From the human T2T-CHM13v2.0 reference genome, Homo sapiens, in assembly GCF_009914755.1 (NCBI RefSeq), contig NC_060941.1: a stretch of 64,000 bases of DNA; one strand, written 5' to 3'. The position numbers were made by a program, and so were the translations under genes. The notes below the pieces were generated by a model. The model saw nothing but the letters and a program-made list of their open reading frames with translations, was not told the DNA's origin and searched no databases. This document shows positions 19,596 through 19,960 of the stretch, piece after piece; positions within the stretch are counted from its first letter, which is position 1, and each line of letters starts with the position of its first letter.

Positions 19596-19675
19596 TCAGG
19601 GAGATTCTCCACTGTGAAGTCTCTGGTGTCTAATGAGGGCTGAACTACACGAAAGCTCTGCCACATTTATGTGAC
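19596..19675 (-). pseudogene. ZNF29P: Terminal C2H2 finger and stop codon of dead KRAB-ZNF gene
   Basis: Minus strand reads HKCGRAF-(frameshift)[17 protein letters not shown] (TGA at 19596-19598). It resembles the ZNF286A last finger [23 protein letters not shown]. Symbol is from memory of the locus. Confidence 0.8.
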
Positions 19676-19960
19676 AGAACTCATACCGGAGAAAAACCCT
19701 ACAAGTGTAAAGAATGTGGTGAAGCCTTCAGTCAGAGCTCAACTCTTACAAAACATATAAAAGTCTACACTGGAGAGAAACCCTACACCTGTAAAGACTG
19801 TAGGAAAGCCTTCAGCCAGAGTTCATCTCTTACCCAGCATCAGAGGGTTCATACTGGAAAGAAACCATTTGATTGTCAGGAGTGTGGGAAAGCCTTCAGT
19901 AGAAGCGCCCATGTTACCCAACATCAGAGGATCCACACTGGAGAGAAGCCCTGTGTATAT
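19676..19960 (+). pseudogene. ZNF29P: Three degenerate C2H2 fingers, inverted relative to the rest of the dead gene
   Basis: [95 protein letters not shown]. Symbol is from memory of the locus. Confidence 0.85.

What the first reader, a model, noticed from the sequence alone, without database searches (positions are those of the whole stretch)
19596..19960. Zinc-finger exon broken by an internal inversion inside one C-x2-C knuckle, with the 5' part missing
Seen: the last finger and stop codon read on the minus strand, while three adjacent fingers read on the plus strand, with the junction at ~19673-19676. The plus block ends ...TGEKP-C-V-(Y) and the minus block begins (C)..HKCGRAF. Flipping the plus block restores a nearly contiguous finger. 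No acceptor, spacer or 5' finger sequence remains between 20090 and the KRAB-B exon; only L2, MER20 and Alu lie there. Inference: this is an inversion-deletion that killed the gene. The same geometry is also produced by a twin-primed (5'-inverted) retrocopy. I see a minus-strand AATAAA (19194-19199) but no poly(A) tract or TSD, which favours genomic rearrangement.
Basis: partly seen in the sequence, partly recalled or inferred. Interest (0 to 1): 0.72.

Follow-up and report, generated by a model that had tools for sequence, protein, structure and literature searches.

The report
Inverted dead zinc-finger gene feeding TRIM16
This is the wreck of a gene-regulating zinc-finger gene (ZNF29P) that is still whole in galago and sea otter: in humans a 280-base piece of its last exon is flipped and over 1.2 kb is missing, likely from one badly repaired DNA break before apes and Old World monkeys split, and its surviving front exons now open the transcript of the neighbouring gene TRIM16.

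Summary
Three fingers read on plus (19676-19955); the last half-finger and stop read on minus (19670-19596). Both blocks, and four upstream minus-strand exons annotated as TRIM16 5'UTR (start exon, 89-nt exon, KRAB-A, KRAB-B), match one intact KRAB zinc-finger protein of galago (715 aa) and sea otter (669 aa), in order and adjacent. The plus block matches them at 77 and 80 of 93 residues; the next best protein reaches 65. No parent gene, poly(A) or target-site duplication was found, so a retrocopy is unlikely. The spacer and 7-9 fingers (1.26-1.37 kb coding) were not found in the genome. The TRIM16L duplicate carries the same junction. An unnamed primate model with baboon-type residues splices KRAB-B into the flipped block, which points to an age before the ape/Old World monkey split. 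The geometry fits one break in the last finger whose resected end folded back onto an intronic TA repeat (inferred). Catarrhine TRIM16 isoform records begin with the dead gene's first coding exons. Verdict: real, an in-place gene loss of a known kind; this anatomy was not found in 10 paper searches.

The parts
28251..28750 (-). CpG-rich promoter and first exon (28436-28551); annotated TRIM16 start, inferred to be the dead gene's promoter
   Evidence: only 500-bp bin with CpG o/e >0.6 and GC >0.55 between window -19800 and 43500; annotation
27276..27397 (-). start-codon exon of the dead gene (MIMEDWTCKLQNR), annotated as TRIM16 5'UTR
   Evidence: aligns with the otter N-terminus
25105..25193 (-). 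89-nt pre-KRAB coding exon; same length as ZNF286A exon 45392-45480; N-terminus of B-box-less TRIM16 isoform records
   Evidence: 66% identity to galago over 29 aa, 61% to otter over 36 aa
21797..21943 (-). KRAB-A exon with a 1-nt deletion near 21883
   Evidence: Pfam KRAB E 1.7e-15; 90-93% to galago/otter over 29 aa; open in gibbon and baboon models
21398..21502 (-). KRAB-B exon with in-frame TAG at 21467-21465
   Evidence: 65-68% to galago/otter over 34 aa
20250..20312 (-). intron stretch that also lies between KRAB-B and the finger exon in galago model P0136
   Evidence: 10 of 14 residues, E 0.004 in 43 kb, continued by CQMYLS after one frame change
19952..20091 (.). palindromic TA/CA/TG simple repeat at the outer junction
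   Evidence: 20-nt unit x3 then (TA)n
19676..19955 (+). inverted block: linker, three fingers, linker and first codon(s) of the last finger (RefSeq ZNF29P 19700-19867 lies inside it)
   Evidence: 77/93 galago, 80/93 otter, next best 65/93
19823..19950 (-). antisense reading of the inverted block, used as last coding exon in primate model P0156
   Evidence: 38 of 42 residues and same stop position; 19-25 of 42 in 11 other human ZNF loci
19654..19681 (.). inner junction, centre of an imperfect hairpin (13-bp arms, 11 pairs, 2-nt loop)
19596..19670 (-). non-inverted end of the last finger, 2-nt deletion at 19650, stop 19598-19596
   Evidence: 13/17 galago, 15/17 otter; otter protein keeps matching past the human stop to 19566
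19194..19199 (-). AATAAA, candidate polyadenylation signal of the dead gene; no poly(A) behind it

Best explanation
ZNF29P is the in-place remnant of a KRAB zinc-finger gene that is intact in galago and sea otter; in humans about 280 bases of its last exon are inverted and the splice acceptor, spacer and 7-9 fingers in front of them are gone, likely through a single mis-repaired double-strand break in the last finger in a catarrhine ancestor. Shown: the parts, their order, the shared parent protein, the loss, the identical junction in the TRIM16L duplicate. Inferred mechanism: (1) a break falls in the C-x2-C knuckle of the last finger; (2) the upstream end is resected by more than 1.5 kb; (3) its 3' overhang, ending in TG-rich codons, folds back and pairs with a TA/CA repeat in the intron; (4) the loop is cut and trimmed, so the 280 bases next to the break end up on the other strand and everything between them and the repeat is lost; (5) the new end is joined to the downstream end by microhomology after a few bases of snap-back synthesis, which leaves the small hairpin. 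Without an acceptor for its last exon the transcript would splice on into TRIM16, whose annotated 5' exons are the dead gene's. KRAB-A and KRAB-B decayed later, on the line to humans after the gibbon split (inferred from open gibbon and baboon models). Odds: in-place inversion plus deletion 0.9; the one-break fold-back route about half of that.
For: One protein explains six separate human pieces in order. Plus block = galago aa 596-688 and otter aa 539-631; the minus tail starts 10 residues later in both. Of 293 held proteins of 93 aa or more, only the two galago models and the otter protein exceed 65/93. In the human genome the plus block has itself, the duplicate (96%) and then 61-72% generic hits (43 matches, 150 of 4617 candidates scored); the galago spacer finds nothing above 41% identity, best E 2.4e-4 (29 matches, 150 of 156 scored); the 3'UTR 19033-19600 matches only itself and the duplicate (8 of 8 candidates scored). 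Galago model P0136 carries intron-derived residues that match window 20312-20250, 300 bases from the outer junction. P0156 shows the flipped block in a second primate genome. The one-break geometry (one inversion end at the break and joined by homology, deletion as the gap, other end joined without long homology) is that of Fig. 4 of bioRxiv 10.1101/2024.12.14.628481 (section 9 read). Inner hairpin: 30 of 13198 out-of-phase and 21 of 20000 same-register simulated junctions reach it.
Against: No outgroup DNA could be read, so synteny of the galago and otter genes with TRIM16, the true size of the deletion and the age of the TA repeat are untested. Homology at the outer junction rests on back-translated codons: 4-8 of 10 (galago), 5-8 of 10 (otter), and TG-rich repeats give such matches easily. 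The hairpin criterion was chosen after seeing it; 2216 of 20000 simulated junctions pass when in-phase finger joins are allowed, and 16 of 1024 when only the five junction bases are randomised. The 17-aa minus tail is not diagnostic alone: two unrelated proteins also reach 13/17. P0156 is an unnamed model; its placing with Old World monkeys rests on three shared residues. After 30 million years poly(A) and duplications can decay.
Confidence: 0.85

Rival explanations
1. Same in-place outcome by a different route: two or three separate breaks with end joining, replication template switching, or inversion and deletion as two events at different times. The TA repeat could be a fragile site that broke, or could have grown after the event.
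For: All the sequence-level facts above fit. TA repeats are break hotspots repaired by microhomology-mediated joining (PMC13645644, abstract only). The repeat holds four perfect palindromes of 14-28 bases.
Against: It does not by itself explain why the far end of the flipped piece and the start of the unflipped piece are within about 0-6 bases of each other while the whole loss sits on the other side.
Confidence: 0.4
2. 5'-inverted (twin-primed) retrocopy of the gene's own mRNA that landed in, or replaced, its last exon.
For: The geometry is what twin priming gives: outer end of the inverted part continues into the start of the forward part, 5' sequence absent (mechanism from my own knowledge; about 20% of somatic processed pseudogenes are 5'-inverted, PMC4151081 passages).
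Against: No poly(A); best flank matches 8-9 of 10, 9-11 of 12 and 11 of 15, within the null of medians 8, 9, 11 and maxima 10, 12, 13; the parent would have to be this locus, and its real last exon would have to vanish as well.
Confidence: 0.05
3. Retrocopy or fragment of an unrelated or neighbouring ZNF gene (for example ZNF286A), or two blocks of different origin, lying by chance behind KRAB exons.
For: ZNF286A is 40 kb away, has an 89-nt pre-KRAB exon and a similar last finger.
Against: ZNF286A reaches only 68% on the plus block against 83-86% for galago and otter; no human locus but the duplicate exceeds 72%.
Confidence: 0.02
4. The gene was already dead, and the rearrangement only hit a pseudogene.
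For: No full-length simian protein among 361 candidates (weak); several unnamed truncated look-alikes suggest that the gene is easily lost.
Against: The flipped block is open for 93 codons, with 4 changes where galago and otter agree plus 3 sites where all differ; galago has 9 and otter 6 private changes. With recalled neutral rates this fits about 3-4% decay (expected 6-8 changes) better than 5.7% (expected 11.5; P of 7 or fewer 0.12, of 4 or fewer 0.01).
Confidence: 0.25
5. Assembly artefact or private variant.
For: The outer junction abuts a simple repeat.
Against: The paralogous locus C17:18653054-18653898, with 152 mismatches in 9.9 kb, has both junctions base for base; P0156 shows the orientation in another genome.
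Confidence: 0.01

Closest known systems
ZNF29P (RefSeq pseudogene, 19700-19867 +)
   Same: The annotated stretch lies inside the inverted block.
   Different: The annotation gives 168 bases on the plus strand and no exons; the gene is on the minus strand, spans about 9 kb (28551 to about 19190) and shares exons with TRIM16.
Unitary (disabled) pseudogenes, KRAB zinc-finger gene loss
   Same: Intact orthologues in outgroups, no working human copy found, exon-intron layout kept.
   Different: The main lesion is an intra-exon inversion with deletion, not a stop or frameshift; the front half is still transcribed as part of a neighbour.
5'-inverted processed pseudogenes (twin priming)
   Same: Orientation and adjacency of the two blocks; missing 5' part.
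   Different: No poly(A), no target-site duplication above chance, no distant parent.
Inversions from remodelled break ends (bioRxiv 10.1101/2024.12.14.628481, Fig. 4; section 9 read)
   Same: One inversion end at the break, deletion as the gap between the inverted piece and the proximal breakpoint, sub-kilobase to kilobase sizes.
   Different: Those cases flank new L1 insertions in cultured or cancer cells; here no inserted cDNA is seen and the event is a fixed germ-line one.
Galago 'zinc finger protein 260-like' (P0131) and sea otter 'zinc finger protein 184-like' (P0134)
   Same: Same pre-KRAB exon, KRAB-A/B, last four fingers and C-terminus.
   Different: They keep the spacer and 13 and 11 canonical fingers in one frame; the source names are automatic look-alike labels.

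Membership tests
Unitary pseudogene of a KRAB-ZNF gene | Intact orthologue in outgroups | tested here: met
   P0131, P0134 match six human pieces in order; orthology by sequence only
Unitary pseudogene of a KRAB-ZNF gene | No working copy elsewhere in the genome | tested here: met
   only the equally broken duplicate; these searches score only the best candidates
Unitary pseudogene of a KRAB-ZNF gene | Disabling lesions with exon-intron layout kept | tested here: met
   inversion, loss of 420-456 codons, KRAB-A frameshift, KRAB-B stop, 2-nt deletion; GT/AG exons in place
Unitary pseudogene of a KRAB-ZNF gene | Synteny of the intact orthologue with TRIM16 and ZNF286A | not testable with these tools
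   no mammalian genomes besides the window's own; one intron-derived match in P0136 is indirect support
Processed pseudogene, 5'-inverted | 3' poly(A) tail | tested here: not met
   no A run of 8 or more within 4.9 kb past the stop; 20-40% A behind three AATAAA
Processed pseudogene, 5'-inverted | Target-site duplication of 5-20 nt | tested here: inconclusive
   no match above the null at four candidate boundaries; age and the simple repeat could hide one
Processed pseudogene, 5'-inverted | Parent gene at another locus | tested here: not met
Processed pseudogene, 5'-inverted | Spliced exon-exon junctions | not testable with these tools
   both blocks come from one exon
Processed pseudogene, 5'-inverted | Outer end of the inverted part continuous with the start of the forward part | tested here: met
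Inversion from a remodelled break end | One inversion end at the break, deletion as the gap on the other side | tested here: met
   against section 9 of the preprint
Inversion from a remodelled break end | Homology at the fold-back junction | tested here: inconclusive
   4-8 of 10 bases depending on unknown ancestral codons
Inversion from a remodelled break end | L1-made insertion beside the inversion (for the L1-induced class) | tested here: not met
   at most 5 unexplained bases at the inner junction, none identifiable at the outer

The most novel reading that the evidence does not exclude
The inversion-deletion did more than kill a gene: by removing the last exon's acceptor it turned the zinc-finger gene's CpG-island promoter and front exons into the 5' end of TRIM16 in catarrhines, and created a B-box-less chimeric TRIM16 isoform (432-450 aa; 41-59 residues from the dead gene joined to the coiled-coil and PRY-SPRY part) whose frame has stayed open from Old World monkeys to humans.
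Probability: 0.3. Interest if true: 0.6.

Novelty: new member of a known kind. Interest (0 to 1): 0.36.

Why it matters
It gives a nameless 168-base pseudogene entry its real anatomy: an old mammalian KRAB zinc-finger repressor lost on the way to apes and Old World monkeys, with a datable and readable lesion. It also shows that an inversion inside an exon can mimic a twin-primed retrocopy, and how to tell the two apart. The wider point concerns TRIM16, an autophagy and tumour-suppressor E3 ligase: its annotated human start site and four 5' exons belong to the dead gene, so its control and isoforms may differ from those of non-primate models. That last step is untested.

Tried and rejected
A homologue search with the finger block alone was swamped by long finger arrays: the best 120 of 7262 hits were all generic, 52-70%. 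The orthologues came only from the KRAB-side query. ZNF286A as parent: rejected. My first position-weight scan had the minus register off by two and its minus column was not used; the first P0156 comparison was out of frame and was redone; its control values are frame-independent and stand. The first hairpin null mixed in-phase finger joins and gave 11%; both it and the narrower nulls are reported. The whole-protein genome search ran with a stricter first look (62 of 2963 candidates scored) and is weak; replace it. A weak finger-like hit at 14972-14904 (11 of 23, E 0.04) was not counted as a remnant. The flipped and rejoined sequence was not searched as such; the natural stretch and its parts were searched on both strands. 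Papers: 10 searches; ZNF29P occurs in 2 papers, once each (listing only); the five ZNF29/KOX26 hits were seen as listings only; a 2026 TRIM16 review has no occurrence of KRAB, isoform, exon or TRIM16L (passage search). Subscription papers and supplements of KRAB-ZNF or gene-loss catalogues were not seen and may list this loss. No structure or complex prediction was run: it would not bear on the question.

Full report
Observation. The six-frame translation shows an open plus-strand block at 19676-19954, RTH-TGEKP, three C2H2 fingers, TGEKP-C (Pfam zf-H2C2_2 E 1.6e-27), and on the minus strand the second half of a finger and a stop (19671-19596). Five bases, 19671-19675, cannot be given to either side. 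Beyond 19951 the plus block runs into a palindromic simple repeat (20-nt unit three times, then TA), so its outer edge is known only to within 10 bases. The feature is real and older than the duplication.

The gene it belongs to. Four exons annotated as TRIM16 5'UTR are coding exons of a KRAB zinc-finger gene on the minus strand: a start exon (27397-27276), an 89-nt exon (25193-25105, the same length as the matching ZNF286A exon), KRAB-A (21943-21797, Pfam E 1.7e-15, 1-nt deletion) and KRAB-B (21502-21398, in-frame TAG). A search with the 89-nt exon gave 9 hits among 18 candidates; the 8 named ones are all catarrhine. Two are KRAB-only models with open KRAB-A and KRAB-B and no fingers (gibbon P0123, baboon P0126); six are TRIM16 records. 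A search with the gibbon protein for longer relatives gave 25 hits among 361 candidates; three stood out at 71-82% identity: two models of one galago gene and a sea otter protein. These proteins were found from the KRAB side only, so their fingers are an independent test. They match the plus block at 77 and 80 of 93 residues, against 65 for the best of the other 290 proteins scored and a median of 55 among 177 with finger arrays. The minus tail follows 10 residues later in both (TGEKPCECSKC..., TGEKPCGCNEC...), at 13 and 15 of 17; two unrelated proteins also reach 13, so the tail counts through its position, not alone. The otter protein goes on matching human DNA past the human stop, to 19566. 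Both blocks and the KRAB exons therefore come from one gene.

What is missing. Between KRAB-B and the flipped block the orthologues have 456 (galago) and 420 (otter) residues, with 9 and 7 canonical fingers. None of it is found in window 1-43000. The galago spacer finds only 24-41% matches in the genome, best E 2.4e-4 (150 of 156 candidates scored). The plus block finds itself, the duplicate and 61-72% generic arrays (150 of 4617 scored). The 3'UTR finds only the duplicate. There is no parent elsewhere at this sensitivity.

Retrocopy or rearrangement. Twin priming gives the same orientation pattern (own knowledge). The defining marks listed in PMC4151081 (passages) are poly(A) and a 5-20 nt duplication. 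No A run of 8 or more lies within 4.9 kb past the stop, and flank matches do not exceed a null. Age could blur both. The stronger argument is position: the pieces lie exactly where the gene's own last exon should be, and the automatic galago model P0136 includes intron-derived residues that match window 20312-20250, 300 bases from the outer junction. A retrocopy would have to land in its own last intron and the real exon would have to vanish. I give that 0.05.

Age. The profile search returned P0156, an unnamed 166-aa model whose KRAB exons share three residues with baboon that gibbon, human, galago and otter lack. Its last 42 residues are the antisense reading of the flipped block: 38 of 42 identical to the human minus frame from 19951, ending at the same stop, against 19-25 of 42 for 11 other human finger loci. 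The phase fits a splice from the KRAB-B donor to the AG at 19952-19951. So the flipped block exists in that genome in the same orientation, which likely puts the event before the ape/Old World monkey split. The human block has 4 changes where galago and otter agree and 3 sites where all differ; with recalled neutral rates this fits death near the catarrhine ancestor better than earlier, but weakly. No full-length New World monkey protein turned up, which points the other way or to separate loss; the search is not sensitive enough to decide.

Mechanism. In gene order the ancestor reads intron (c), lost part, flipped part (b to a), last half-finger (a'). Today c joins a, and b joins a'; a and a' are neighbours. 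This is the pattern described for a single break whose resected 3' overhang anneals to itself (bioRxiv 10.1101/2024.12.14.628481, section 9 read): one inversion end sits at the break and joins by homology, and the deletion is the gap. The bases after TGEKP match the possible ancestral codons at 4-8 of 10, so fold-back onto the TA/CA repeat is possible, not shown. The inner junction is the centre of a hairpin with 11 of 13 pairs and a 2-nt loop. Comparable simulated junctions reach this in 30 of 13198 and 21 of 20000 cases, and in 16 of 1024 when only the five junction bases vary; with in-phase joins allowed it is 2216 of 20000, and the criterion is post hoc. I read it as a few bases of snap-back synthesis followed by microhomology joining (inference). 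TA repeats as break sites repaired this way are described in PMC13645644 (abstract only), which supports the rival in which the repeat itself broke. One break with fold-back is my choice, at about even odds against the other in-place routes.

Link to TRIM16. The only CpG-island-like bin between window -19800 and 43500 is at 28251-28750, the annotated TRIM16 start; none lies near the B-box exon, whose ATG is at about -4170. Records from human, siamang, orangutan and snub-nosed monkey join the dead gene's start exon and 89-nt exon to the TRIM16 exon at about -12960, skipping the B-box exon; a gorilla model and a second human partial record use other joins. Whether this was caused by the rearrangement or existed before cannot be told without outgroup transcripts; the query was human, which favours catarrhine hits.

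Novelty. RefSeq already lists ZNF29P here, as 168 plus-strand bases. Ten paper searches found nothing on the inversion, the intact orthologues or the shared exons; ZNF29P occurs once in each of two papers (listing only), and a 2026 TRIM16 review never mentions KRAB or isoforms. Subscription papers and catalogue supplements were not seen. Gene loss by local rearrangement and reuse of a dead neighbour's 5' exons are known kinds of event (own knowledge). Verdict: real, well resolved, new member of a known kind; interest 0.36, and 0.6 if the promoter takeover proves to be caused by the event (probability 0.3).

Noticed in passing
window 27276-27397 and 25105-25193 (-), joined to C17:15549038 (L016:6838): TRIM16 isoform records of human, siamang, orangutan and snub-nosed monkey (P0121, P0124, P0125, P0127) start with the dead gene's first two coding exons and skip the B-box exon.
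   Followed up: partly
proteins P0160, P0164, P0171, P0187, P0198: Unnamed short look-alikes of the same gene; P0171 reads into the start of the finger exon and stops, P0164 looks frameshifted there. The gene may have been lost several times in mammals.
   Followed up: partly
window 52394-52486 and 50626-50740 (+), ZNF286A: The annotated ZNF286A KRAB-A exon is 115 nt and lacks four residues (between PAQR and DVML) that the dead gene's KRAB-A has; one linker reads HTRILFEC in place of HTGEKP.
   Followed up: no
window 19436-19451: 16 bases present in the window are absent from the duplicate; the duplicate also has C to Y in the third flipped finger.
   Followed up: no
window 19348-19379: A short TA/CA-rich stretch in the 3'UTR resembles the outer simple repeat (10 of 12 bases); within the chance range.
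   Followed up: partly
window 14904-14972 (-): Weak finger-linker-like translation, 11 of 23 residues, E 0.04; likely chance.
   Followed up: no
proteins P0131 and P0134: Both orthologues have Cys in place of the usual Tyr/Phe after the last TGEKP, and galago has one more finger than otter in the middle of the array.
   Followed up: no
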